DNA of 64,000 nucleotides from Podarcis filfolensis (Eukaryota): the NCBI GenBank assembly GCA_964270895.1, contig OZ185440.1. One strand, written 5' to 3'. The notes under the pieces were generated by a model, which did not search any database, was not told the DNA's origin, and saw nothing but the letters and a program-made list of their open reading frames with translations. Numbering within the stretch: position 1 is the stretch's first letter; each line of letters starts with the position of its first letter. This document shows, piece after piece, positions 1 through 63,535 of this stretch. The position numbers and the translations under genes are program-made.

Positions 1-1118
1 CATTTATATTAAAAACCAGTTAATGCCTTTTAGGCAGAATGAGAAATACAGATTGCACACCACACTAGAAACTGAGACAAAATGAGTTCCAAAACAATTA
101 TGAAAATGATATTTATGTGTACAGCACTGTTATTGCACCAGTGGATCAAAACGAGAGGGACAAAATGGATACTATCACTCAGGTCCAATTAATGCTCCTT
201 CTTAACCACTTTTTGTATGTGATAAATATGTCAATGAATGCAACAGCATTTGCCCAGTTAAAGGAATGTTTTATAGCCCCCTATGCACCCCTAGTTTAAA
301 ATAATATTCTGCTATTACTTTTCAGTCAATAGCATTTTTAGTATGCATGCTAAGAAAACCAAACAACTTGTTTCAACTTCAGTGTGATTTTAATAACTTG
401 CTGTAATGTGAGGAAAGACTTGTCCTAGTTTATTGCAATCCACATTTCCTGCAGTTTTGAACACCTCAAAACCAAGGAGGGCTGGGACAAAAGTACCCAC
501 TTCAAAGCCATGTTTCACACTTTGCTTTTCTGTCTGTTCAGTCCCCAAAGCCAGGCTTCTATAAACAATAGCAGATAATGAGTTTATGCATGTAATTTGA
601 TTTAAATGGATTCTAACGGCTATACACTGATTCTGTGGACATTGCAAAGCACGCCTCTGAATAACTTTGTACCAGACTTATTAGTTATTTTGCAAATAAA
701 TTGATCTGGAAATGTTCTTGGTTAGTCAGACATACATAATTTCTTTGCATTTCCCCTTCTCCCCTCCTCCCTACAAGAGGGTGACAAATATATTAGGTCC
801 TTTTGAAATAGATACCATATCCCCACTGGGTTTTTTAAAAAATAAAATAAAAAGCTAGACTGATATTTTATTTCACATATAAATATGAACAAATCTTAGG
901 AGTTGAAAGTTTGCATTTTTTGGAGGGGGAGTTGGTGTCCGGATTTTAATATGCATGGTGGAAAATGTAAGATTTATTGAATCTACTTTGTTTTCCACTA
1001 AAACAACGCTCAGGAGAAAGTGTGGGATGTTCTCATTCTGTGATGCTAAGTACATGATAAATTCCTGTAAATCTACTCAAACTGGCAGTCTTCCTTTCTC
1101 TAATATGGAAAAAACATA

Positions 1119-1344
1119 CAGTGGTACCTCGGGTTAAGTACTTAATTCGTTCCGGAGGTCCGTACTTAACCTGAAACTGTTCTTAACCTGAAGCACCACT
1201 TTAGCTAATGGGGCCTCCTGCTGCCGCCGCGCCACTGGAGCATAATTTCTGTTCTCATCCTGAAGCAAAGTTCTTAACCTGAAGCACTATTTCTGGGTTA
1301 GTGGAGTCTGTAACCTGAAGCGTGTGTAACCCGAGGTACCACTG
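1119..1344 (+). mobile_element. Tc1/mariner-type MITE, copy 1
   Basis: TIRs CAGTGGTACCTCGGGTTA...TAACCCGAGGTACCACTG flanked by TA at 1117-1118 and 1345-1346. Three more copies occur in the window. Confidence 0.93.
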
Positions 1345-14884: not shown

Positions 14885-15020
14885 CAGACATCCCCAACCT
14901 TCGGCCCTCCAGATGTTTTGGACTACAATTCCCATCATCCCTGACCACTGGTTCTGTTAGCTAGGGATCATGGGAGTTGTAGCCCAAAACATCTGGAGGG
15001 CCGCAGTTTGGGGATGCCTG
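14885..15020. mobile_element. hAT-type MITE (136 bp)
   Basis: Long TIRs CAGACATCCCCAACC.../...GTTTGGGGATGCCTG. 8-bp TSD CTCTAAGC (14877-14884) / TTCTAAGC (15021-15028). Confidence 0.9.
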
Positions 15021-19427: not shown

Positions 19428-19704
19428 AGAATTATAGAATTGGAAGGAACCACGAGAGTCCTCTAGTCCAGTGTTCCCCAACCTTGGGCCTCCAGCTGTT
19501 TTTGGACTACAATTCCCATCATCCTTGACCACTGGTCTTGCTAGCGAGGGATGATGGGAGTTGTAGTCCAAAAACAGCTGGAGGCCCAAGGTTGGGGAAC
19601 ACTGCTCTAGTCCAACTCCCTGCAATGCAGGAATCTTTTGCCCAAGGTGGGGCATGACCCTGAGCTTAAGAGTCTCATACTCTACTCACTGAGCTATCCC
19701 AGCT
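19428..19704 (-). mobile_element. SINE with tRNA-derived head and CR1-like tail (Squam2-like), interrupted by a hAT MITE
   Basis: Reverse strand: AGCTGGGATAGCTCAGTGAGTAGAGTATGAGACTCTTAAG head, then CCTGCATTGCAGGGAGTTGGACTAGAG...CCTTCCAATTCTATAATTCT CR1-like tail. Confidence 0.85.
19469..19604. mobile_element. hAT-type MITE (136 bp) nested in SINE
   Basis: 52-bp TIRs with one mismatch, starting CAGTGTTCCCCAACCTTGGG. Perfect 8-bp TSD CTCTAGTC at 19461-19468 and 19605-19612. Confidence 0.95.
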
Positions 19705-21790: not shown

Positions 21791-23071
21791 AAAATATGCT
21801 TTGACAGATTTGAACATGTGCAGGCTGTGCAGAAGAGAGCTTCACCATTCTCATCAGTAAAGGCAGCAGCTACATTAAAATAGACCTGTGTCCACAAAGT
21901 TCCCCAACCCAGTTGAAATTAACGGGAAAGCTATGTTTACAAACTGGAGCCTCTGTGTCCTCAAGGGAACCCTTGGAATGGAGGAAACAAAATCCTTTGT
22001 GTTCATGCTCAGCCACTCCGATGCATATTTATCAGATATATTAAAAAGCATAGAGTTAAAATATCAGGTGAGCGGGGTAATTGTGATGATCAGGTTCCAG
22101 AATTAGAATCAGGTGTTTGCAAATGCAAAAAAAAAAAAAAGTGTTACTGGAAAGATAAAAGTCTGGGTTTGGTGGATAAAAAGAAGAAGAAAATCCTCTG
22201 AAGTATTATCTTTTAGCGTTTCGAGGGGGGAGAAAGTCCTTGCAGGAGTGGGTGGGGGGAAGTAGTTTGCTTTTTAAATGAGTTCAGGTGGAGACAATGA
22301 CATAGCCTATAGCTCCCAGTTAGGAAAATAACCGAACTGTGATGCATATCTGCATTATCAGTAAACAGAATACCTTTCTTATCATAGTCTGCAGCACAAT
22401 TCTTTGATCTTTGCTACTTTTGTTAGACACACCACTGTGGTCTTGGTTAAAATATTTCCACTGTTTTGAAAGTCTTTACTGCTTTAGAAGATCTTGTGTA
22501 ACTGCGTAGAAATATCCAGACTGACCCAAGCTTCAGTTAATGTAGCACTGGGGCATATTTTGATTAGTATTTAGTTCAGAAAAGAAAAAAAAGGAAGTAG
22601 AGGGGAGAAGGAGAAATCTGTGGGCAGAAACAATATTGCAAAGAGAGAAATTTGTTTCATTTGAATAGGCTGCTAAGGGCAGAGTTTGTAAATGAAAACG
22701 TACTTCTCAAAATGCCTAAGGGTTTCAATCACCGCCTTTGAATAAGGATGTAATGCTGTTCTATTGAAATCACTGGGAGCTTTGCTGCTGACTTTAATAG
22801 AACCAGGATTCATGGAATGGTAGCTTTAATCTTATGTCATGGAGGTAGCCCTGGATTAACCAATGGGAACTGCATGGGGCTAATTTCATGAATTTTGTAC
22901 TCAATAATTCTATGTCAAGAAAGTGACCCAGTGCTGAAGATATCACCAGAAAGTGGTAAAATTAGCTTGATATATAGCCAGAGCTCAAGATAGGGCGAGA
23001 GACCTTTAATGTAATCCAATCACTTATCATGGATAAGTGATCACCATACGCTATGTGGATACTTTTCATCT

Positions 23072-23437
23072 GTTGTTTAGTCGTTTAGTCGTGTCCAAGT
23101 CTTCGTGACCCCATGGACCAGAGCATGCCAGGCACTCCTGTATTCCACTGCCTCCCGCAGTTTGGTCAAACTCATGCTGGCAGCTTCGAGAACACTGTCC
23201 AACCATCTCATCCTCTGTTGTCCCCTTCTCCTTGTGCCCTCAATCTTTCTCAACATCAAGGTCTTTTCCAGGGTGTTTTCTCTTCTCATGAGGTGGCCCA
23301 AGTATTGGAGCCTCAGCTTCAGGATCTGTCCTTCCAGTGAGCACTCAGGGCTGATTTCCTTCAGAATGGATAGGTTTGATCTTCTTGCAGTCCATGGGAC
23401 TCTCAAGAGTCTCCTTCGGCAACATAAGGAGGAGGAA
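23072..23437 (-). mobile_element. BovB (RTE) LINE 3' fragment with TSD
   Basis: Minus ORF 23077-23406 (RVPWTARRSNLSILKEISPECSLEGQILKLRLQYLGHLMRR). GTTGTTTAGTCGTTTAGTC tail. 11-bp TSD ACTTTTCATCT at 23061-23071 and 23438-23448. Confidence 0.93.
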
Positions 23438-27610: not shown

Positions 27611-30365
27611 GTGGAGAAGCAGGATATTGTGTAACAGTGTGCTTCAAAATAATGAATGGCATCCAACTAGCTCATAGTGAGAGTTGGTTAAGGTCATGAT
27701 TTCAAAAGATCTACTTGGACTATGACTTAGATGCCATCCAATAACACCTCTTCAATAATATTCCAGCAATTCATAGGGCAAAAATTAGACAAGCAAAATA
27801 TTCTGCAGAAATGTGACAAATCCTAACATACTAAAGCAGCATTAATAATCGATGCAGTAATAGGAGTTTCTAAACATCTAAGAAGCTCCCTCACACCCAG
27901 GCTGTCTCCTCTGTAGGAACATGTTTCTTTATACCATTATGTGCCTCTTCATATGACAAAACAATACAGATGTTCGCCTTCAGATTTGGTTCTGCCACCA
28001 AAATAATCCCTCTGCAATTTACAGAAATGCAAATAATTGGTTCCTGCCACATAGGAACATAGCTGCCACCAGCACCAGAGAAAGAAGCAAAAACTAAGTT
28101 GGATTGCTTTGAAAGCTCATTTAAAAAAGAGAAACTAGGTGTAGGTCAAATTCATCCTGTCCAAAGGAACCTGTACCAATTCCAGACAAGCCTTCTACAA
28201 ACAAACTAGTTCATCTTAAGTTCATACTCAGGAAAATAGCCTGCCTCAGTTATTTCAGGGTTCTCGCCTTGAGATTAAAGCTACACTTTGAAAATGATGA
28301 TTATTATAATTTTAATATTTGCACTCCACCCATCTGACTGGGTTGCCCTAGCCACTCTGGTGAATGAATGAATGAGTAAATTTAACAAATTTTAGATGAA
28401 TAATCACAAGAAAGTAAAAATCTTTGAATTCATATCTGACTTCAAATATGCCTGCAGTTTGAGACACCTGAGGAAACCGACCAGCTATAGTCAATCATTA
28501 GCAAAATGGGGGAGTGAATGTAGTATTATTTGAAGATATAAAATTTCCAATGCTCTTGCACTGTTTTTAATTTCTGCTACTCCTTCAGTATGAGGCATGC
28601 CATCAAGATAAGTTAAACAAACAACCTCTGGCTACAGATTAAGTCAAATATCAAAATCATTGAAGCTGACCATGAAAGCTCCCTCATGCTGAACATTTGG
28701 GGGTTATCAGGATCAAAAAGCCACTGCAATATTTATCGAAAACATAGCCCACCGTGGTTCAGACTTCATTAACTTCGTATGTATTTGAATAACTCAACAG
28801 AGCTCATGCAATCTGATTCTCTGCAGACTGCCTCCCTCCTTTGACTTAGGGAAAAAACACCATTTATCCTCTTGGAGAGATATGTATCAGTTTGTAAATG
28901 TTGTGAAAGGGAAAAAATAATATGAGGCTCACACATGTGATTGGCTTTTCTGAATGCAATAAGCTCAACAGGGACACATTATGCTTTGTACATGAAGAGT
29001 CAAGAATGAACTTGTCATTTCAGCAGTACAGGTAAAACTTATTTCACATATAATAGTGCATCCTACTGAGTTCCGGTTGATACATTTTTTTAGCTTGATA
29101 AAACAATATTAAAAGAAAAAGAATAAAAATGAAAGAATAGGATATTATTTATTTAAAAGCACTTTTAAACCACTTAAAATTTAAAAAGTCTTTAAGTCCT
29201 GTATATGTATACGTGTGTGTGTGTATGTGTGTAAAAAAAACCATAAGCCTATAAAACAGCAATATAAAAGTATATAGAACAGATAAAACAATGATTATAA
29301 GATTCGAACATATATAGCAGGGTCAGATCTTATGGGCTAAGGAAAGGCTGGGGAAAGAGGTAAGTCTTGTCTAAAGCAACTGCTGCAGAAAAGGACATTC
29401 TGGGGGAAATATATGGAGGAAAGGGCATTCTGCAATACAGGGTTTCTTATTTTTTTTAGAAAAAGCTTTATATTTATATATTTATTTTAAAAGTAGAGTG
29501 GCAAAAATAGCTCTGTTAACCTGGAGATCCACTTTATTTACCCAAATCTGCTTAACACAGTGCTTACAAGAGAAAAGGAAAAGCCTAGAGCTAATCCGAG
29601 AACCTATGACTGTGCTCACACAGGAAAGGGTGATGACACACAAACAAAGTCTAGCTGACCATATATAAAAGAGAGATGTGAGTCTTTATAGGAGTCAGGT
29701 GCTACAACTTACCTCAGATTTGGGATGCTGTGTTGCTTCTCAAAAATGCTGTTAGTATTGGAGTGTTTTGTACCTCAGCAGCCCTCTGGTGCCAGCGTGC
29801 GACAGAACAGGAAGATGTAGCCGTGCTCAGAACGTTCCTTTCCTACCAACATGGAGGTCACCAAACCATAGTTCTGACTGCTTCACACCCCTTATGTCTT
29901 CCACTGCAACTTACTATTCAGGCTGTTTACATGACAAGTGTTACTAAGACAGGGTACCACCATTTACAAACAGGTTGGGAAGTGCCCTAGCACTGTCCCA
30001 GTGAAATCTTCTGCTATGCAGGATCATTAGCCCTGCAGGCTGAACCATCCCAGGGACTTTAGACCTCTCACCTGTTGTACTGTTGGCCTTCTCCTTGCTT
30101 CCCACCTTGTCCATGGTCACCCTTGGGGAAAAAACGCCAAGTTGTCTACCGTCTCATTTCAGCCAACTAACATAACATAGCCTCTCACTTGCACACATAC
30201 TTCTAAGCTTCTTTTGATAAGCCTTAATTGTCATTTCTATTGACAAAAGTTTGGTTGGATACCATTCAAAACGAAAGCTGCTTGGTGACAATACAATCCC
30301 TAAGTTGTTGGCTGATGCTGCTGTCTTTATAAAAGGGTGCAGAAAGACATATATAGAAGAGATTA

Positions 30366-30596
30366 CAGTGGTACCTCAGGTTAAGTACTTAATTCGTTCC
30401 AGAGGGCTGTTCTTAACCTGAAACTGTTCTTAACCTGAAACACTACTTTAGCTAATGGGGTCTCCCACCGCCGGAGCACGATTTCTGTTCTTATCCTGAA
30501 GCAAAGTTCTTAACCTGTAGCACTATTTCTGGGTTAGTGGAGTCTGTAACCTGAAGCATATGTAACCTGAAGCGTATGTAACCAGAGGTACCACTG
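30366..30596 (+). mobile_element. Tc1/mariner-type MITE, copy 2
   Basis: CAGTGGTACCTC...GAGGTACCACTG with TA at 30364-30365 and 30597-30598. Confidence 0.93.
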
Positions 30597-30646
30597 TACA
30601 TATAAATGTACATTGGCAAAGCCTCTCCTCTTCAACGAGGGGAGGG

Positions 30647-31440
30647 ATTGTGAGTGGGAATCACTTCCCATGCTTGCAGGAGGGGTGTGGCTGGGCCCCC
30701 TGCATCATGGAGTCCTGGGCCCACGTCATGTCCCCCAGCCAGCTATTCTGGCTGGCTGGGGGGGACATGGTTTAGCTGCATTTAAACAGCCGCCAGCCCA
30801 CGAGCTCCTCCTGTTTTCTCCCGCTTCCTCGGATGGATCTCCCTCCCTCCCTCCCTCCCTCCCTCCCTCCCTCCCTCCCTCTAGGTCTTGAATTCCACAC
30901 CTGACCTTGCTATGGATCTTGGTTGATTGCCTTGGTTGTCCTAGGGGCCTGGTAGGAATTTTTTCCACTTGGCACATTGGCAGCAGTCGCTTGGTTTTTC
31001 GCCTACTTCGTAGCAAATCGTCACAACTTTGTAAGGTTTGGCGGTTAGGTTAGGCATTGGAAAATGTGTTGTGTGTTGGAGGGGAGGTTGTGGCCATCAC
31101 CTACTCCTCCCCTTGAAGGGTATTCCGTTAAAGGAATCTGGCGGTCGTGGTTCCTGTCCGATGTCCAGGTGCTGGCTAGGGCCATGTCACGACCCTCCGG
31201 TGAAAGCTTCCAGGTGATTTGCATCTACAAGCTCCCCCTACAGGTTGTTAACCCTTGTGTGACTCCCTGCAGATCAGGCAGGAGTCAAGTATAGTCGGTT
31301 TGGATCCAATGCCTAAGCCAATACCACTCACATTCTGTAACCAATAAAGTTGTGGCCTTTTTTTAGCCCCTTAACCTAAATTGCTTGTGTCCATGTGTCT
31401 TATTTCATCACAAGCGGGGAGCGGGGCCTCAATTTACAAC
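30647..31440 (+). mobile_element. Solo LTR-like element, copy A
   Basis: Shares diagnostic blocks with copies B-E (GGTAGGAATTTT, CACAACTTTGTAAGG, GGTTAGGCATTGG, CCAATGCCTAAGCC, AATAAAGTTGTGGCC). TATA-like TTTAAA at 30781, ends TACAAC(A), no internal retroelement ORF adjacent. 5' boundary approximate. Confidence 0.75.
30841..30880. repeat. (CCCT)n microsatellite inside LTR-like copy A
   Basis: Direct reading. Confidence 0.95.
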
Positions 31441-36414: not shown

Positions 36415-37300
36415 TGTTGTGGTGGTGGAGCAGAATTGTGTCTGATAAAGGTATGTTGATTAAAACATGTAGAGCCCCTACGCAGATAAAGCGTGTTCTC
36501 CCTTATGGAGAGCACGTGTTGTGGTGGGGGCTGACAAGACACCTCACTGTTGCTGGGCAAAAGAGTTTGGCCATCTTTAAGCAGGGGCGGGCTGTTACTG
36601 GGGAGATTTATATGTTGCCATTTATTGATTGACAGCCCTGTTTGTTAAATACACTGCACGCAGTGACAAGCTTTCTCTTTCGCTGCATGCTTCGGATCAC
36701 CCACCCTCCCTCCCTAATGTTAGGCTGTTTGCTTGACCTTGCTATGCCTGTCATGGGGTCGTCTGCTTTGGGGCAGGGGCCTGGTAGGAATTTTGTCCAT
36801 TTGGCTGATTGGCTGGTGCCATTTGGTTTTTGCCTACTGCGTAGCAAATCGACACAACTTGTAAGGTTGCGGTTAGGCATTGGTTTGGGAATTGGTTGGT
36901 GGAGGAGTATGGATTTGGCTGTGCCTGTCCCTCCAAAATGCTGCTGCTGCAAGGGTTTTCTGTTAAAGGAACCCAGGGGCTCACCATGCTTTTGTCCGAA
37001 CCCCCTGGCAAGGGGCTAGGGCCACGCAAGAGCCCCTGGGAGCATTCTGGGGAGAGGTGAGGTATGGTTCCCAGTCCCGTCTCTCTCCCCAGGTGACTTA
37101 CCCTTTCTGACTTCGCGGGGGGTGCGAATGTCAGAGCTGTCACCGTCCGGGGTCAGTTAGTTGCTACCAAAGCCTAAGCAACCACTCACATTGCTGTATT
37201 TTTAATAAAGTTGTGGCCAAAATTATGCCAAAAACCTTAAACAAAAATCAAGTGTCATTGTGTTTTTATTTGGGGTGTCTTGGGGACCTCGACACGCAAC
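36415..37300 (+). mobile_element. Solo LTR-like element, copy B (core start 36517; TSD-supported start 36415)
   Basis: TGTTG...CAAC termini, TATT at 36411-36414 and 37301-37304, TATA-like TTAAATA at 36645, AATAAA at 37204-37209, family blocks present. Confidence 0.8.
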
Positions 37301-39428
37301 TATTCAGGCACAGTGCTCTCTCGCTCTCGCTCTCGCTCTCTCGCTCTGATTGCTAACCTTGAAAAGTCTTGATGTTAACCTCACTTGGTCTCATTCCTTT
37401 TCTTCTACCTCTTTTTAAAAAGAGTTCTGACTCTTACTTTTATCACTAAGTGTCTCCATTCTTCCGGTAGCACTGGAGTTACAAGTATCTTTGAAAATTT
37501 CTTTAATGATTTGTAACTTTATACTCTGAGATTTCATGCACTTATTCCATGTTTTTTAATATGAGCAAGAAAAATAGACCTGGTAACTTATTATTCATAT
37601 TCCTCTGAATGGGGGATTGGGAAATGAAGCTTTATTTGAGGCCTCTCCTAGAGGCAGTGCTAAGAAATGGGGAATGCACATTCATTTTTCCCAGAGACTA
37701 ATTACTCGGTGTCTACTCTCCCTCTCTGTCTGTATCACAGGACCTCGGAGTCCCCAAGTCTGCCCTCAAGTTAAGCCCATGCGATCTTTCATTTCAAAAT
37801 AGCATCTAAATAATTTGCTTAGACTAAAATAATAATATGTGGAGTAATTATTGGAGGGGATTAATAAAGAATTAAAATGCCTTGGTACCATGTGTCATAT
37901 TTTATCCTACTAGATCTGGCACGTTTTTAGTAATTGACTGCATAAGGGCATATGCAAACTGAAGCCATACAAAGTGATGTTTCCTATAATTTCCTACCCC
38001 ATATGTGTATCAGAATCAGTAGCTGAGGCACGTAGCTGTTTAATAGCTACCCCAAATAGTGGATAATAACCCAATAACTGGTAGCTTAAACCATGTGTTC
38101 TATTTGGTAGTTGGACTGGATAAAACTGCAACAAAATAATAATGTCCTAAATGGTATTGTAAAGGGAAACTTGGTTGCAGAGTAGCTGGATAGAATCAGG
38201 TCCTTATGAAAGAGCTATAATTTAACTGAGATCTAAAGCCCCCTCAAAAATTCACAATAGAGAGCTGATATTTCCTAGGTTCTTATTCAAGCCTCTTTAG
38301 AAAATGGGGAGATGATAGAACCTACCCTTCATTCATTTCATTTATTTCCATACACATAGTCAAGGGTTGCTTTTGACAGTGGCAACACAGATGAAACCAA
38401 GGATTCTGAGCCATAGCAAATATAAATTTATGAATTGTTTACAAATCAAAGCATCCAAGGACTACAACAGCAGCACCACAGCACGTATTTAAGAAATCTA
38501 GGGGATTTCAATGGGGAAAAGGATCTTATCAGAAAGGGAACGGTAGTACACAGCGAGTTTGTATCAAGCGACACAGCGGAACACACACACGGTTCTGAAA
38601 GAAGACAACAGAACAATAGAGGTACACGTACAGAGAGATGAAAAAGAAAGTCATTGAGTTTGCAATCCTATCTATGCTTACCTGGAAATAAGTTCCATTG
38701 AACTCAACGGGAGAGGCCTAGAATTGCCTTCTTAGAAAATGAAATAACAGGGGGAAAGGCAGAAAATGTCATGATGATATGGGCTTAGAGAGCATAAAGC
38801 CAGGGAATTATTAAAACCATGCAGTACGTGGGTACCAACATACTAAGCTGACTAAAACAATGCTCAAGAAAAGATAACTGAGAACAACAATAAAATAGTC
38901 AGGAAAGCATGAAGAAAACATGCAAACAATATATATGTGTGCTATAACATACACAATGTTTTTTCTCACTCTGGGGATTGCAGCTCTTTAACACAAGGGC
39001 CTTTTGTGGAAAAATCTGAAATCCCATCATGTTTATGTATATATATGTGGCACCTTTATTGCTAGGGCTGAACATGGTTTAAAGGAAATGCTTCAGCCAG
39101 TTTTACAACATCAGCAGAGCAGCAGCAAAATGTGCAAGAGCCTGATGACAGAAGTGGAAGAAGACAAAGACACGGGCTGTTGAGAGGGGCATTCCAGATG
39201 ATCCGTTACTGAGCATTCATCCTGGTTTGTTTTCAGGGAGATTGGAGAATGTTGGCTATTTAATTACCATTCATCCTGATTTGTTTGTGGGGAGGATAGA
39301 TGACTGTTGCATAAAAGCAAGGAATAACTCACACTTCTCAGTGCATTGCCCCATCTCAAAATCTCTTCCGCAGAAGGGGGTTTAACTTTCCCAATCAACT
39401 GCAATTCTGCAACTGGAATTTGCTAATA

Positions 39429-39659
39429 CAGTGGTACCTCGGGTTAAGAACTTAATTTGTTCTGGAGGTCCATTCTTAACCTGAAACTGTTCTTAACCTG
39501 AAGCACCACTTTAGCTAATGGGGACTCCCGCTGCCACTGCATGATTTCTGTTCTCATCCTGAAGCAAAGTTCTTAACCCGAGGTACTATTTCTGGGTTAG
39601 TGGAGTCTGTAACCTGAAGCATCTTTAACCTGAAGGGTCTGTAACGCGAGGTACCACTG
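39429..39659 (+). mobile_element. Tc1/mariner-type MITE, copy 3
   Basis: CAGTGGTACCTCGGGTTAAG...GAGGTACCACTG with TA at 39427-39428 and 39660-39661. Confidence 0.93.
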
Positions 39660-39827
39660 TATGTGACTTTGAATCCCACCTAAAGAATAGCAACACCTGT
39701 GTTGCAGCCATTCTTGGTCACCTTTTGAAGAACACGGCACAAGGCAGGACCACCCATTATGCCCTCTTAAGAGATGAACGGTACTGTAGGGATGTTTATG
39801 TGATAAAACAGCAAGATTGTGAAAGGA

Positions 39828-45095: not shown

Positions 45096-46293
45096 AGAGA
45101 AGTGTGACTGGCCCAAGGTCACCCAGCAGCTGCATGTGGAGGAGCGGAGACGCGAACCCAGTTCACCAGATGACGAGTCTACCGCTCTTAACCACTACAC
45201 CACACTGGCTCTCTTTAAAAGGCCATAAGGCAAATTCATATGCTACATTCAGGATCAGAGGCAACATCTCCCTAAATACTAGTCACTGAGGAACAACAGC
45301 AGCAGACTGCTATTACTCTCATGTCCTATTGGTGGGTTTGGCATAGGCATCTGGTTGGCCATTTTGGAAGACAGGACTAGAACTAGACAGAAGGATTCTT
45401 CCCAGGTTCTTATTACTGCCACCTTCCCCTGAAAGAGATAACACTGGACTATAATAAATAGGCTTGTGTTCACAGATGGATTTCTTATTTTCATTTTTCC
45501 ATCCTTTTCCAATTAATGTATATTCACAGATTAATTTTCAAGAAGACTTTTTTTTTTTTTTTGGAAAAATGTTCCTGACAACTCACCTAGTGCCATATGA
45601 AAATATGCTTCAAAATTAAAACATGCATCCTGTTTCGTTTTGCTTTTTTGTTCTTTGTCAATCTGCCGGTGGTAAGCCCCTTCATCATCCAAACTGTGAG
45701 CAAAATGTGCAACAGTTCCCTTTCTGTGTAATTTTATTTCCTCACATTTCACTTCTTCCAGCCAATTTAGTTCAGTTACCTGCCATCTGCTGTCTCCTCA
45801 CCTTATTTCTTGGCTATAATGTTAGCACAGTATGAGGTCTGCTGTATAAGTCTACTAGTGGTAAGTGGCTGTGGACTCTGCTATATACACCTCCAGAATC
45901 CAGAAATGCATACTGAGCAGTGCTTCTGAAAGGAGAACTGCCACAGCTCTGTCTGTAAAACCATGTTCTTACTGTCCCAAGACAAAGACTGATTTTGGTC
46001 ACTGAGGAGTGTTGCAAAATCACCCTAGACCTGGATAGGGGCCCTTTCCTTTATTTGAAATATTCCAGGGCTAGCACTTGATATTGGAAAAGATTCTGAG
46101 GCTAAGAATCTAATAGAACAAGTAGATGACAACGACGATGATGATGAAGAATGAATAAAACAAACATGCAGAAGCACCAACTTGTGACGGAGATTGAGAG
46201 GGCCTGATGTTGCGTCAGGTTGGAGGAGTTCAGAATGTGGTGGCATCACAGCTTCAATGGCTGGTAGATTGGATCCTCCCACCCGAGGGTCCA

Positions 46294-47025
46294 TGTTGCG
46301 CGCAGCCTCGGGACTCCCTCCAACCGGCCTGGAGGCGGGGCTTTGGCCCTGCAACCGGACAGTAATGCTGCAACCACACCAGGGGCCTTGGGCTAATCAG
46401 TGATGCTGGCATGATCACGAGGTAAGTATATATATGGCAGTGTGACGTGTGCGTGTCTCTTGCTTCGCGCTGCCAAACACCCGCCCACCCACCCATTGTT
46501 CGATCGGTGTCTGCCCTTGCTTTGGGCTTCGGTTGGTTGCCTATTTTGGAATGGGGGCCAGGTAGGAATTTTTTCCAATGTGGCAGATTGGCTGTGGCCA
46601 CTTGGTTTTTGCCTACCTCTTAGCAATCGTCACAACTTTTGTAAGGTTTGGCGGTTAGGCATTGGTTTAGGGGAATGTGGGGAGGGGAGGTGTGGCCATC
46701 ACCTGCCTCTCCATTTGATAGTGTATTCCGTTAAAGGAATCCGGGGGTCTGGATCTCATCCGAAGCCTGGGGAGGGGTTAGGGCCATGCCAGAACCCTCT
46801 GGAACCCCAGTCAATAGCCACTGTTGGAGCTCCCTCTGCTGGTAGTTTACCCTTTGCAGGCTTCCTGCTGGGTGGGCAGGAGCCAGTTATAGTCATTAGA
46901 TACCAATGCCTAAGCCAATACCAGCCACACTTGTGTATTCAATAAAGTTGTGACCTAAATTTGCCCATTCTGTGTCCATTGTGTCTTTATTCAATGGGGG
47001 CGGGTTTCGGGGCTTGACATGCAAC
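46294..47025 (+). mobile_element. Solo LTR-like element, copy C
   Basis: TGTTGCG...TGCAAC termini, flanks TCCA/TCCT (3/4), TATATA at 46427, AATAAA at 46941-46946, family blocks present. Confidence 0.8.
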
Positions 47026-47284
47026 TCCTTCTCCTTTTTCTCTTTCTGAAGGAGGAGAAGGAGCCCCCAGCCATTGAAGCTGCACTGGTGCCATGTTCCT
47101 GGCTCCTCCAACCTGACACGACTTTCTTAAAACATTGGGTGGTTTGCCCCCCAAACTAATATTGGGCCCCCCAAAAGGGTTCAGCCCCCAGGAGTTGGTG
47201 CCCCTGCAAACGTGTAACATGATTCTGGCTGTGATTCTCACACACAGTTACCTGGGAGTCAGTTCAATGGACTTACTGAGAGTC

Positions 47285-50412: not shown

Positions 50413-50915
50413 CTAGACAGCATCTTAAAAAGTAGAGACATCACCTTGCCAACAAAGGTCCGTATAGTAAAAGCTATGGTTTTCCCAGTAGTGATGTATG
50501 GAAGTAAAAGCTGGACCATAAAGAAGGCTGATCGCTGAAAAATTGATGCTTTTGAATTATGGTGCTGGAGGAGACTCTTGAGAGTCCCATGGACTGCAAG
50601 AAGATCAACCCTATCCATTCTTAAGGAAATCAGCCCTGAGTGCTCACTGGAAGGACAGATCCTGAAGCTGAGGCTCCAATACTATGGCCACCTCATGAGA
50701 AGAGAAGACTCCCTGGAAAAGACCCTGATGTTGGGAAAGATGGAGGGCACAAGGAGAAGGGGACAACAGAGGACGAGATGGCTGGATAGTGTTCTCGAAG
50801 CTACTAGCATGAGTTTGACTACACTATGGGAGGCAGTGGAAGACAGAAGTGCCTGGCGTGCTCTGGTCCATGGGGTCACGAAGAGTCGGACATGACTAAA
50901 CGACTAAACAACAAC
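50413..50915 (+). mobile_element. BovB (RTE) LINE 3' fragment with TSD
   Basis: ORF 50578-50895 (RVPWTARRSTLSILKEISPECSLEGQILKLRLQYYGHLMRREDSLEKTLMLGK). CTAAACAACAAC tail. 12-bp TSD AACTTCCAGTGC at 50401-50412 and 50916-50927. Confidence 0.95.
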
Positions 50916-56354: not shown

Positions 56355-57110
56355 TGTTGCGTGGCAAGACCTCAAGCTGACTCCCCATTAGGGTAAATAA
56401 ATTTACATAGACACAGATATTTTGTTTAAGGTTTTTGGGCAAAAATTTGGCCACAACTTTATTGATTACAGGAATGAGAGCGGTATTGGCTTAGGCATTG
56501 GCAAGACTATATCTGACTCCTGCCCCCTTTGCAGGAAGTCTGTAAGGGTAAACCACCCAAAGAGAAATTGCTTCAGGGGAACCCACCTGCATCTCCCCTG
56601 GTGTTCCCAGAGGCCTGGCATGGCCCTCACCCTTCAAGCGGACTTCAGACAGGAACCAGGCCCTGGCTTCCTTTAACAGAATACCCTTGAAACTGGAGGG
56701 GCAGGTGATGGCCGACCTCCCCTCCCTCATTCACCATAAGCCAATGCCTAACCACCAAACCTTACAAAGTTGTGATGATTGCCAAGAGGCAGGCAAAAAC
56801 CAAGTGGCCCGTGCCAATTTGCCAAATGGAAAAAATTCCTACCCAGCCCCCGACTCAAGCTGGGCAACCAACCAAAGTCCAAAGCAAGGCCAAAGGATCT
56901 AAATTAAAGGGAGGGTGAGCGGGTGTTTGGCAGCGCGAAGCAGGAGCCAAGCACACGTCGCGCTGCCGCTTTTATACTTTCCCCCACTATCACCCTTTGA
57001 CATGATTGGGCAACAGCCCTGGGTGATTGTGGTGCCACCCCAGCGTGAGGGTGATAGCTCTACCCATGCCAGGGTGGGGGGGGAGCCAAGTTGAGAGCCT
57101 GCCCACAACC
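56355..57110 (-). mobile_element. Solo LTR-like element, copy D
   Basis: Minus strand: TATAAAA at 56970-56976, AATAAA at 56458-56463, ends CACGCAACA at 56355. Strong similarity to copy C downstream of the TATA box. TSD not clear. Confidence 0.8.
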
Positions 57111-59109
57111 AGGACCATCTATTAAGATGATCCCATTTACTTAGGAAGTTATCAACCTGCTATGGCCATGTTCCTGAGTATCTTAGTAACACTTCTGGCT
57201 GAGAATGACCTGGTCCAGTGGGTGGTTTTGCTTCTCAGCCATGATGTTAGGCAAGACTCTTGAACTGGGCTCCAAACCTCTTTGTGGTTTGGCCCAGGTT
57301 GCTGTACCAGTGAGACTGGAGGCAAGTGTGACACCCTAACAAGGCTGGCTAGGCTCTGAGACTGGTCAATGGAGAGTTAATGAAGTGGCTGTTGCAGGCA
57401 GGAAAAACTTACATCACTCCTCACCTCAAGGGTATAGAGAGGATAGGGTATAGCACACTACAGAGGGGCGTGACATGTGTTTGGAAGACTTATGCCAAGG
57501 TCTTGTGAACTTTCCTCAGGTAGATGGAAGGAGGACATCTAGCTTCAGCTGGCTGCCTCTGGGGGCTTTTAGTGTAGGCAGGTAAGTAGACATAGCACCT
57601 TGCTTCAGGTTCAGTGGAGGGTACCACACTAACCGCAGCTTGGAGGGGACCACAGTTTGATACTCTTGGGACCTGACATGTGCCATCTTCAGAATGTTGA
57701 ACAGTGAGGATGGCTGGCATCTGTCAGGTCACCCACCCTTTAATGGGAAGATGCTATTTCTAGGAAGATTCTCCAGCTTGAGCGATGCAGTTGATCTGGG
57801 GTGGTTTAGCACTTAGTAGCAGGGAAGAGATTTACTACCAGCCTATGCAGGCTATACCTGCCTCCATTTGTTTGATGTGATTGGCACAATTTCTTCCTTG
57901 TTATATTTTAATAAATATAGCATATTTTTGCCAGGTCCTGTCTTGTTGAGTCTTCAGTCCAGGTGTGAGATAAATGCAGACATACGTATTAATTTGTTTT
58001 TTATTAATAAATCACCTACATTGCCATATCAAAAATGAAACACTTAACCCCAGAGGCATATAAAGAATGCCTGTGAGAAGAAAAAATATTATGGGTAACA
58101 CATGAAAAATGGCTTTAATGGAAACGTTGCAGATTAATATTTACACACGGGATATTTTTGGTTATAAAACATATGTAATACAGTACAGTGTGGTTAGGCA
58201 GAGCTGCTAAAGGCTATAACACACATGTGAGTCATAGACTTTAAAAAGAATTGGTGGCAAAAAAAAGTTAAGCATAAATAGGAACATAAGACTTAATAGG
58301 GCATTAGGGAGGGGCCCATTTCTGGTTGCATATGGCAGGCTAGGTCCTAACATGCGGATTTTGCCATTGAGGGGGAGATTCAAAAATCCAACACCTATGA
58401 TCATCTGGGCCACTTCATATTGTACTTATCTACACAACTTTTTAAATAGTGCTTGGGAAGTTCATTTAAAAATAAATTCTAGGTCATACTTTTACAAAAT
58501 AAACTAGTTCAGTTCAAGTTGCCACTTGCCTGATTTCAGATAGTTGGGATGCACAGAGAAGAACATTGGCAGATAACCTCAGCCCATAGGCAATTGAGCA
58601 CCACTGCCTTGACACAGAGAAGAAATCAGAAAAGGACTGCCAGTATAGTTCTTTTTCCAGTGAACTCACTAAGTACAAGGGGAGTAATTCCACATTTCCC
58701 TACCTTTCTGATATCTTCTGCTCTGTTGTCATATCTGCATTTTTTATCTTTGTTTGCAGATTTCTGATGATAATTTATTCAAAGCAAAGGTTTATATACC
58801 TTAAGAAATTCATTCTGAACTTTTTGATCAATTATCTTTTCAAACCAGTTTCAGACTTTGAATCCCTGAAGAAACTTTGACTCTTAAGAGGATTCCCCCC
58901 ACCCTTGAGTTTTTCCCCACCTGCTCCCCTATGATGAAGATGTTCTTGTTTGGTTGGCTGGCTGGTTATATTATGTTGAACTAATTTTGTACTTATTTTG
59001 TATTGTCTTATGACCATTTTTTGTTTTGGATTTAATTTTAATGTACAGTTCATGTTTTATTAGCAGTATCTTTTTCAAGTGTTTTATTTTGGCACGGGCT
59101 ATTTGCTTT

Positions 59110-60930: not shown

Positions 60931-61230
60931 ATTGTATGCCCAGGCACCATGAACCCACCACCACTGGGTCGTATAGGCAAAACAAGGTTATAATTAGGCC
61001 ATAACTTTATTGATTACAGATTTAAGTGAATTTTGGCTTGACACTGGATAGTTACCAACTCCTCCAGCTCACCTGCTGGAGGGGTATCTGGGGTCAGGTG
61101 TGATTCCCACAGACTTGCTGCACTGGGGAGTGCTCAGATCCTGATTGGGTGTATGGACAGAAGCACCTCCCCATGGATTCCACCAAGGAGCGGGGAGCAG
61201 ACGTGGCAAAGTAGGTGTCAGGCCGCAAAC
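60931..61230 (-). mobile_element. Partial, diverged solo LTR-like element, copy E (3' third)
   Basis: GGCCATAACTTTATTGATTACAG (60997-61019) matches the family poly(A) block. Structural equivalents of the inner stem and hairpin are present. Confidence 0.6.
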
Positions 61231-62880: not shown

Positions 62881-63535
62881 TAGAGGAGGGCAGCCAAGAT
62901 GGCTGAGGGTCTGGAAACCAAGCCTTGTGAGGAATGGTTGAGCGAATTGGTTATGTTCAGTACAGTGGTACCTCGGGTTACAGACGCTTCAGGTTACAGA
63001 CACGTCAGGTTACAGACTCCGCTAACCCAGAAATAGTACCTCGGGTTAAGAACTTTGCTTCAGGATGAGAACAGAAATCGTGCTCCGGCGGTGCGGCAGC
63101 AGTGGGAGGCCCCATTAGCTAAAGTGGTACCTCAGGTTAAGAACAGTTTCAGGTTAAGGACGGACCTCCAGAACAAATTAAGTTCTTAACCCGAGGTACC
63201 ACCGTATGAGTAAGAAGTGACTGAGAGGAGATTTGATAGTCATCTTCAACTATCTAAAGGGCTGTCACATGGAAGACAGACCAAGCTTGCTTTCTCCTGC
63301 TCCTGAGGGCAGGATCCAAACTAATGGCTACACGAAAGTTACAAGTTGAAAGAAAGAAGATTCTGAATGAACCTCAGGAAGAACTTTATGACAGTAAGAG
63401 CTGTTTGACTGTGGAATGGACTCCCTTGGAAAGCAATGGACCTTCATTGGAGGTTTTTAAGCAGAGGTTGGATTGCCATTTGTCAGGAATGCTTTTGTTG
63501 AGATTCCTGCATTGCAACTCTCCAATTCTATGATC
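62881..63535 (+). mobile_element. CR1 LINE 3' fragment interrupted by a MITE
   Basis: AGGAGGGCAGCCAAGATGG...CAAGCCTTGTGAGGAATGGTTG before the MITE, and GACTGAGAGGAGATTTGATAG...GGAGGTTTTTAAGCAGAGGTTGG...ATTCTATGAT after it. Reverse-homologous to 15131-15720. Confidence 0.9.
62963..63204 (-). mobile_element. Tc1/mariner-type MITE, copy 4 (opposite orientation, nested in CR1)
   Basis: CAGTGGTACCTCGGGTTACAG...TAACCCGAGGTACCACCG with TA at 62961-62962 and 63205-63206. Confidence 0.93.

What the first reader, a model, noticed from the sequence alone, without database searches (positions are those of the whole stretch)
46629..46954. Solo-LTR-like family keeps a long-range stem that pairs into its own AATAAA signal
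Seen: in all four near-full-length copies a CACAACTT(T) arm pairs with (A)AAGTTGTG, which overlaps the end of AATAAA, about 300-350 nt downstream. The pairs are A 31022-31030/31346-31354, B 36853-36860/37208-37215, C GTCACAACTTT 46629-46639/46944-46954 (11 bp perfect) and D on the minus strand 56766-56774/56452-56460. The 5' arm is followed at once, or after 1 nt in C, by a splice-donor-like GTAAGG. The enclosed sequence is much more divergent than the arms. Established: HIV-1 suppresses 5'-LTR polyadenylation with a hairpin that occludes AAUAAA and with U1 snRNP binding at the major splice donor. Inference: this family may use an analogous long-range RNA fold plus U1 site to control poly(A) choice. 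I do not know of this being described for lizard LTRs, but I cannot exclude it.
Basis: partly seen in the sequence, partly recalled or inferred. Interest (0 to 1): 0.7.

Follow-up and report, generated by a model that had tools for sequence, protein, structure and literature searches.

The report
Tail-anchoring stem in Ngaro retrotransposon
These repeats are leftover end pieces of a jumping gene, and the paired arms are its most unchanged letters, predicted to fold the RNA's tail end back beside a U-rich clamp that likely protects only the long, copyable form of the RNA from decay.

Summary
The arms are real in all four copies, but the copies are not LTRs. They are solo A-S-B remnants of Ngaro (tyrosine-recombinase) retrotransposons, built A1-ORFs-B1-A2-S-B2; coding parents exist in this genome. 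The 5' arm lies only in the unique spacer S (51 of 51 complete ends, 18 families), never in front of B1. Both arms are invariant while the B interior is about 51% identical, so the 10-bp stem shows no covariation. It covers only 1-4 nt of AATAAA. The U1 site is kept in 7 of 18 families, and in solo copies the arms decay like neutral DNA. Beside the arm, S holds an ENE-like U-rich internal loop (13 of 18 families by strict pattern, 17 by hand). Best reading (0.45, inferred): the stem anchors the B2 3' end next to this clamp and stabilises the read-through RNA. Rival: the arm pairs upstream and shuts B1. No RNA evidence was obtained. This scan noted the solo repeat and the ENE-like hairpin before in other genomes; that lead changed my reading.

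The parts
46268..47024 (+). Copy C: solo A-S-B remnant of a Ngaro-type retrotransposon
   Evidence: ends from 27 relatives; S and B match coding-linked elements; L205 has an ORF4 remnant in front of a B 88.6% identical to C over 166 bp
46268..46477 (+). A repeat (approximate right border): start hairpin 46271-46292, inner inverted repeat 46295-46300 pairing with the element end 47018-47025, TATA-like stretch 46427-46436
   Evidence: sequence; border by analogy to A1/A2 comparisons; promoter role inferred
46478..46648 (+). Spacer S, present once per full element, between A2 and B2
46517..46626 (+). Conserved folded domain of S, closed by 46517-46522 pairing with 46621-46626
   Evidence: RNAalifold helices 1-5; folds of S alone
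46561..46617 (+). ENE-like hairpin: G-C-rich lower stem, opposed U6 (46569-46574) and U5 (46606-46610) runs, CC/GG upper stem
   Evidence: triplex with poly(A) not shown
46629..46639 (+). 5' arm of the long-range stem, last part of S
46641..46646 (+). GTAAGG linker; splice-donor-like only in one clade, not conserved
   Evidence: 7 of 18 families
46649..47024 (+). B repeat
46649..46665 (+). 5' strand of the inner helix at the start of B
   Evidence: helix 7, 3 of 13 pairs change on both sides
46903..46922 (+). 3' strand of the inner helix; its right half pairs with the ORF4-stop region when B is B1, and more weakly with the linker when B is B2
46941..46954 (+). AATAAA (46941-46946) and 3' arm (46944-46954)
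   Evidence: use as a poly(A) signal inferred, not shown
46971..46988 (+). GU-rich stretch downstream of the hexamer (candidate downstream element)
   Evidence: sequence; similar stretch in the 18 families
30621..31439 (+). Copy A: solo A-S-B of another family; arm 31020-31030, hexamer 31343-31348
36491..37299 (+). Copy B: solo A-S-B, 78% identical over 647 bp to coding-linked elements and also matching their A start; arm 36853-36860, hexamer 37204-37209
56357..57135 (-). Copy D: solo A-S-B; arm 56766-56775, hexamer 56458-56463

Best explanation
The four copies are solo A-S-B remnants of Ngaro retrotransposons, and the stem is an invariant, spacer-specific pairing that is predicted to form in the parent's RNA and likely anchors the 3' end made at the second poly(A) site beside an ENE-like U-rich loop, which would grip the poly(A) tail and slow decay. 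Shown: element structure A1-ORFs-B1-A2-S-B2; the arm and the U-rich hairpin occur only in S, 2-3 nt and one helix apart; B1 has instead its own covarying upstream helix that leaves the hexamer uncovered. Inferred from the structure: a copyable RNA has to run through B1 and the B1/A2 junction, so only RNAs that reach S and end in B2 carry the clamp; the element would then enrich its genomic RNA by selective stabilisation and not by hiding AAUAAA. Not shown: transcription start, poly(A) site use, the stem in RNA, the triplex. In the window the copies are fossils: their arms decay at the neutral rate. Identity as Ngaro solos about 0.95; a real RNA stem in the parent about 0.8; this mechanism 0.45.
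For: Parents: YR, RT and GDSL-hydrolase ORFs between split direct repeats, A1=A2 and B1=B2 at 100%; A1 found in 15 of 16 further families looked at; B2 in 52 of 140 ORF4-anchored tails. Arm in S in 51 of 51, before B1 in 0 of 140 tails. Invariance against a 51%-identical interior. RNAalifold recovers the stem; the surrounding fold covaries (15 pairs changed on both sides, shuffled mean 7.9, 0 of 500). The invariant wobble is U.G on the + strand (A.C on the other); P(stem)>0.5 in 10 of 14 families on + and 5 of 14 on -. Opposed U-runs of 4 or more with G-C flanks in 17 of 18 families by hand parse, 13 of 18 families and 34 of 51 elements by strict pattern, with 0 hits elsewhere in the 3' ends, 0 in 84 kb of A1 plus internal sequence, 2 of 5400 shuffles, and in the window only inside copies A, C, D. 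The definition (U-rich internal loop, flanking G-C pairs) is from PMC7583470, PMC13541005 and PMC12501189. A peripheral duplex that anchors the MALAT1 triplex is a precedent (PMC11411715, abstract).
Against: No pair of the stem covaries; invariance could come from protein recognition of each arm. One family keeps the arm but has only U3/U3 loops. The inner helix already brings the poly(A) region near S, so the outer stem is not needed for proximity alone. Minimum-energy folds prefer the arm paired upstream with B1: lower in 16 of 18 families when the RNA ends 25 nt past the second hexamer, free folds use B1 in 10 and B2 in 0 of 18; 9 of 13 when B2 is complete. The 3' arm can also form a weak local hairpin with the sequence behind it (-2 to -9 kcal/mol). 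The stem is not predicted in window copy B nor in 4 of 14 families. The ENE idea came from an earlier unchecked note of this scan.
Confidence: 0.45

Rival explanations
1. Poly(A)-site selector in the upstream register: in the nascent long RNA the arm appears about 470 nt after the B1 signal and 300-350 nt before the B2 signal, pairs back with B1, keeps B1 shut and leaves B2 free. In short RNAs started from A2 or from a solo it pairs with B2 and shuts that. This can coexist with the ENE-like clamp.
For: B1 and B2 are identical, so both registers are open. Forced folds favour B1 in 16 of 18 (median -5.7 kcal/mol) and 9 of 13; nascent prefixes pair arm with B1 at P>0.5 in 7 of 14, two more at about 0.5. 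The element needs read-through of B1 (inference from structure).
Against: Energy differences are small for 1,100-1,300-nt folds. Only 1-4 hexamer bases are covered and the number is not conserved. The arm is made long after the B1 signal, so cleavage could commit first (inference).
Confidence: 0.25
2. Sequence-specific signal for the element's own proteins (Gag, RT or YR) in packaging, strand transfer at the S/B2 border, or cDNA end formation; the complementarity is real or incidental but has nothing to do with poly(A).
For: Both arms are invariant while neighbouring helices swap pairs. The arm lies 2-20 nt from the B2 border in all 18 families. The arms resemble the stem that closes the B/A recombination junction. 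DIRS priming is unknown (PMC7192593, introduction).
Against: The 3' arm is contiguous with an invariant AATAAA. Simple self-priming at this stem is unlikely: the arm would then be copied from its partner, yet it keeps a U opposite G in 18 of 18 families, and the linker is family-specific.
Confidence: 0.2
3. One reading: a solo LTR whose local stem hides its own AATAAA, helped by U1 at GTAAGG, as in the HIV-1 5' LTR.
For: The local stem forms in copies A, C, D and overlaps the hexamer. HIV precedent in PMC2645353 (passages).
Against: Not an LTR. GTAAG in 7 of 18 families. The local stem is at the downstream site. Arms in solo copies take private changes at 2.2-2.8 per 100 nt against 1.8 overall; 11 of 27 keep both arms.
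Confidence: 0.07
4. Chance complementarity of two motifs conserved for unrelated reasons.
For: No covariation.
Against: 9-12 contiguous pairs between the two longest invariant runs, stacked outside a covarying helix in the same register.
Confidence: 0.03

Closest known systems
Ngaro retrotransposons and their solo AB repeats (Cafeteria burkhardae, PMC8547959, passages); SIRE = A2 + short unique part + B2 of VIPER (PMC6681497, passages)
   Same: A1-[ORFs]-B1A2B2 layout, gag-like/RT/YR plus hydrolase ORF, isolated A-B repeats; SIRE also has a short exclusive piece between A2 and B2.
   Different: Here the unique spacer is 160-230 nt and holds a conserved fold, an ENE-like loop and an arm pairing next to AATAAA; the passages I read describe no RNA structure there.
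Single-domain ENEs: KSHV PAN RNA, Arabidopsis Evade/Copia93 (PMC7583470 and PMC13541005 passages; PMC12501189 abstract and one results section)
   Same: Hairpin with opposed U-runs and flanking G-C pairs near the 3' end of the RNA, in a non-repeated spacer in front of the terminal repeat (as in Evade).
   Different: U-runs are 4-6 (3 in one family); host is a YR retrotransposon of a vertebrate-like genome; the loop is tied to the poly(A) region by two long-range helices; triplex and stabilisation are untested here.
MALAT1 triplex with its peripheral anchoring duplex (PMC11411715, abstract)
   Same: A duplex outside the U-rich loop holds the A-rich strand in place.
   Different: MALAT1 uses an encoded A-rich tract and a processed end; here a normal poly(A) tail is presumed.
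HIV-1 polyA hairpin and U1 at the major splice donor; HTLV-1 276-nt fold (PMC2645353, passages)
   Same: Two identical poly(A) signals in one element, with RNA structure at the signal; long-range fold of similar span to HTLV-1.
   Different: Not an LTR; hexamer barely covered; no conserved splice donor; the 5' arm lies outside the repeat and in front of the downstream copy.

Membership tests
Ngaro (DIRS order) | Split direct repeats A1-ORFs-B1-A2-B2 in the parent | tested here: met
   A1 = A2 (99-100%) in 15 of 16 further families; B1 = B2 in 52 of 140 tails
Ngaro (DIRS order) | Tyrosine recombinase, RT and gag-like ORFs, optional hydrolase ORF | tested here: met
   Pfam Phage_integrase (27.7 bits, cut-off 27.1), RVT_1, GDSL lipase (below cut-off), CCCH finger (below cut-off)
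Ngaro (DIRS order) | Window copies equal A + spacer + B of such parents, without target-site duplication | tested here: met
   for copy C only a truncated coding-linked relative was found (L205)
Ngaro (DIRS order) | RT/YR phylogeny with reference Ngaro, PAT, DIRS and VIPER elements | not testable with these tools
   no named reference elements were available; PAT-like elements share the repeat layout but carry a methylase, not a hydrolase (PMC7192593)
LTR retrotransposon / ERV solo LTR | TG...CA ends and 4-6 bp target-site duplication | tested here: not met
   ends lie at a shared AA core; a flank repeat of 4 bp or more in 2 of 27, one of them inside a microsatellite
LTR retrotransposon / ERV solo LTR | Parent with two full direct LTRs and a DDE integrase | tested here: not met
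   parents have split repeats and a YR
Helitron2 non-autonomous element | Asymmetric inverted repeats with hairpin, Rep/Helicase parent | tested here: not met
   ends look alike (PMC3627910) but the sequence is part of RT/YR elements; a Rep/Helicase parent was not searched for
ENE stability element | Stem-loop with opposed U-rich internal loop | tested here: met
   17 of 18 families by hand parse, 13 of 18 by strict pattern; U3/U3 in one
ENE stability element | G-C pairs next to the loop | tested here: met
   two invariant G-C pairs in the lower stem, three other pairs change on both sides (helix 4)
ENE stability element | Near the 3' end of a polyadenylated RNA | tested here: inconclusive
   arm is 291-351 nt before the B2 hexamer; poly(A) use not seen in reads
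ENE stability element | U.A-U triplex with poly(A) and stabilisation of a reporter | not testable with these tools
   needs bench work
HIV-type poly(A) suppression | Hexamer inside a helix at the site that must be silent, plus a conserved U1 site | tested here: not met
   1-4 of 6 bases covered, at B2 locally; GTAAG in 7 of 18 families

The most novel reading that the evidence does not exclude
The unique spacer of these Ngaro elements is a compact RNA 3'-end control module: one invariant arm that can pair with either of two identical poly(A) regions, shutting the first while the RNA is being made and then, with an ENE-like clamp, protecting the tail added at the second. It would be a new way for a retroelement to pick and protect its genomic RNA, and an ENE in a vertebrate tyrosine-recombinase retrotransposon.
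Probability: 0.2. Interest if true: 0.75.

Novelty: new variant of a known kind. Interest (0 to 1): 0.5.

Why it matters
How elements with split direct repeats make a copyable RNA is essentially untested; even for DIRS-1 the primer is unknown (PMC7192593). These elements must read through one poly(A) signal and stop at an identical one. The spacer gives a short, sharply defined, 18-family-conserved candidate for that control, testable in an ordinary reporter. If the clamp works it extends ENEs to YR retrotransposons and means that thousands of solo copies scatter a promoter-like box, an ENE-like hairpin and a poly(A) signal through the genome. If not, the copies are ordinary Ngaro solos, and the repeat is at least reclassified from LTR to Ngaro.

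Tried and rejected
Helitron2: considered from the hairpin-plus-asymmetric-repeat ends, dropped once RT/YR parents were found. Self-priming at the stem: rejected as a simple model because of the invariant U.G and the family-specific linker. A TG..CA reading of the joined B+A unit and a conserved primer site after A1: not general across 15 elements. Rfam: nothing at gathering score in the window, only weak chance-level matches in four loci. RNA: no RNA holder listed; raw reads of four runs laid on two loci (6-12% of each run read, 81-671 reads laid, mostly under 95% alike) showed no place where many molecules end and no poly(A) loose ends among those displayed (25 and 112 were not shown); reads come from many copies on both strands, so this is no evidence either way. 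A junction pattern for a full-length parent of copy C's family found 0 matches; spacer-type against ORF-type contexts gave 61 and 1 matches. Metagenome search for distant relatives gave 3 loci without B-A-S-B structure. A more distant family in the genome (L136, L137, L139, L141, L149) had no B2, so it could not test covariation. Pairing of the C-rich start of S with the G-rich end of B: inconsistent. First ENE pattern undercounted through lazy matching and was redone. Searches ended early (14 and 13 of 18 families). Literature: searches on Ngaro with replication, polyadenylation, secondary structure and ENE terms gave no paper describing this structure (listings only, except passages named in the report); one search found 0 papers. 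The survey of transposon ENEs by Tycowski et al. [quoted passage not shown]

Full report
OBSERVATION. The four arm pairs are exact reverse complements at the stated places. The copies are 68-76% alike and belong to a large family: 4,863 first-look candidates in the 1.5-Gb own genome, 40 scored (a rough figure, not a copy number). Copy C runs 46268-47024. In 27 of 30 relatives with both ends found, the element starts after AA in 20 and ends in AA in 26 (the end motif was part of the search, so the second count is partly built in); a flank repeat of 4 bp or more occurs in 2. These are not LTR ends.

WHAT IT IS. A Pfam PF00589 search of the genome gave 5 matches; I fetched the surroundings of the 4 on large contigs. 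Two are complete elements with A1 = A2 (211 and 209 bp, 100%) and B1 = B2 (423 and 428 bp, 100%) in the order A1-ORFs-B1-A2-S-B2, and window copy B matches their A start, S and B. The ORFs hit RVT_1, Phage_integrase and, below cut-off, a CCCH finger and a GDSL hydrolase. This is the Ngaro layout, including solo AB repeats, as described in PMC8547959 (passages), PMC7192593 (introduction) and PMC6681497 (passages). I took 140 ORF4-anchored 3' tails from two searches that each scored about 150 of 1,400-1,500 candidates (chosen to spread over identity; a few loci were fetched twice). 52 have B2; one truncated one was dropped; the 51 left form 18 families at 90%. Of the 88 without B2, 68 carry the arm and a clean B-end motif, as A-ORFs-B forms would. 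A1 was found in 15 of 16 families checked. For copy C's own family a pattern count gave 61 spacer-type against 1 ORF-type context; that one (L205) has an ORF4 remnant before a B 88.6% identical to C over 166 bp. The window has no Ngaro coding remnant.

WHERE THE ARMS LIE. The 5' arm is in S in 51 of 51 elements, 2-20 nt before the B2 border in the 18 family representatives, and absent from the first 80 nt of all 140 tails and from the internal regions of 15 elements. The hexamer plus 3' arm is exact in 51 of 51. So B1, the site an RNA must pass to include the B/A junction (inference from the layout), has no local arm; B2 has. In the 18-family alignment the arms are fully invariant, against mean column conservation 0.60 in the B interior and 0.72 in the rest of S. 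RNAalifold recovers the stem with 10 pairs: 9 never vary, one is broken once, none changes on both sides, while the whole fold has 15 such pairs against 7.9 shuffled (that shuffle ignores relatedness). The stem covers 1-4 hexamer bases. GTAAG follows the arm in 18 of 51 elements and 7 of 18 families. Among 27 solo relatives of C, private changes per 100 nt are 2.2 (5' arm), 2.8 (3' arm), 1.6 (S), 1.9 (B interior); 11 keep both arms exact. The constraint acted in the active lineages, not on the inserted solos.

B1 HAS ITS OWN HELIX. The 12-14 nt starting at the ORF4 stop pair with the segment just before the hexamer, and this pairing follows family changes: cognate duplexes average -17.6 against -12.3 kcal/mol for mixed ones (21 distinct pairs, 2 loci skipped, permutation p 5e-5, relatedness not controlled). 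In front of B2 the linker pairs with the same segment more weakly. B1 and B2 are thus predicted to fold differently in spite of identical sequence.

THE U-RICH LOOP. I tested the shape here. S has a 6-7-bp G-C-rich stem, opposed U-runs and an upper stem: both runs 4 or longer in 17 of 18 families by hand parse, U3/U3 in the last; a strict pattern hits 34 of 51 elements and 13 of 18 families, nothing else in the 3' ends or on their minus strand, nothing in 84 kb of A1 plus internal sequence, 2 of 5,400 shuffled spacers, 18 of 30 solos of C's family, and in the window only copies A, C and D. The domain ends 2-3 nt before the arm in all 51. The defining features are from PMC7583470 and PMC13541005 (passages) and PMC12501189 (abstract and one section). 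The triplex itself cannot be tested here.

MECHANISM. Best reading (0.45): S is a 3'-end module found only in RNAs that have passed B1; the inner helix and the arm stem bring the B2 poly(A) region to the ENE-like loop, which would hold the tail and stabilise the long RNA (and any short RNA from A2 or a solo). This fits B2 being the used site, the partial hexamer cover and the spacer-only position; MALAT1's peripheral duplex is a precedent (PMC11411715, abstract). Since B1 = B2, sequence comparison cannot tell the registers apart. A protein-recognition or strand-transfer role (0.2) is suggested by total invariance and by the position at the B2 border. The LTR-plus-U1 model (0.07; HIV background from PMC2645353, passages) fails on identity, U1 conservation and direction. 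RNA reads gave nothing usable.

NOVELTY AND VERDICT. The element class and solo form are known. I found no paper on RNA structure, poly(A) choice or ENEs in Ngaro elements, but the main survey of transposon ENEs is not held. A sequence look-up in this scan's notes found no look-alike; word look-ups found the solo repeat and the ENE-like hairpin in other genomes, which is not independent support. New variant of a known kind; interest 0.5.

Noticed in passing
B1/A2 junction of 18 families (e.g. L055:2545-2605); window 46271-46300 with 47018-47025: The B/A junction folds into a long hairpin in all 18 families (-23 to -36 kcal/mol) with very different sequences, the AA crossover core sitting at a small internal loop. 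It could be a folded single-strand recombination site; DIRS-1 cDNA is linear and single-stranded (PMC7192593).
   Followed up: partly
ORF4 stop to B1 start, all families (e.g. L100:193-230): A small hairpin flanked by a repeated TGGCGG-like hexamer marks the left border of B1; it may be the pause or template-switch point that keeps B1 and B2 identical.
   Followed up: no
L024:430-2040; L136, L137, L139: Copies sit beside or inside one another: a B-type solo is nested in the TATA region of a C-type solo, and solos lie about 600-700 nt behind B1 of a distant family.
   Followed up: no
window 46209-46264 and 47067-47122: Copy C lies between the arms of an older 56-bp inverted repeat (75% complementary), probably a small DNA element it inserted into.
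   Followed up: no
window 60990-61050, minus strand: A fifth, short and decayed fragment of the B poly(A) region.
   Followed up: partly
L119:2823-2960: The most divergent family has a longer spacer with several pyrimidine-rich stretches ending in CAGGT, like splice sites, and only U3/U3 loops.
   Followed up: no
L024:1578-1632: In two bulk RNA runs 230-350 reads of one diverged copy lie here with the first mate on +, which in most stranded libraries means antisense RNA, perhaps a host transcript carrying a copy.
   Followed up: no
L154, L166, L174 families, about 60 nt before the main hexamer: A second AATAAA inside B, not followed by the arm sequence.
   Followed up: no
window 1116-1334, 30364-30598, 39427-39661, 62960-63208; 14885-15020, 19463-19610; 23071-23427 with 50557-50913: Other interspersed repeats: a four-copy family of about 235 bp, two palindromic MITE-like elements, and a 357-bp inverted pair at 92%.
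   Followed up: no
G000:C133:38190-38660 (L033): A very strong phage-integrase match (E 9e-25) on a small contig, unlike the Ngaro hits; possibly bacterial sequence in the assembly.
   Followed up: no
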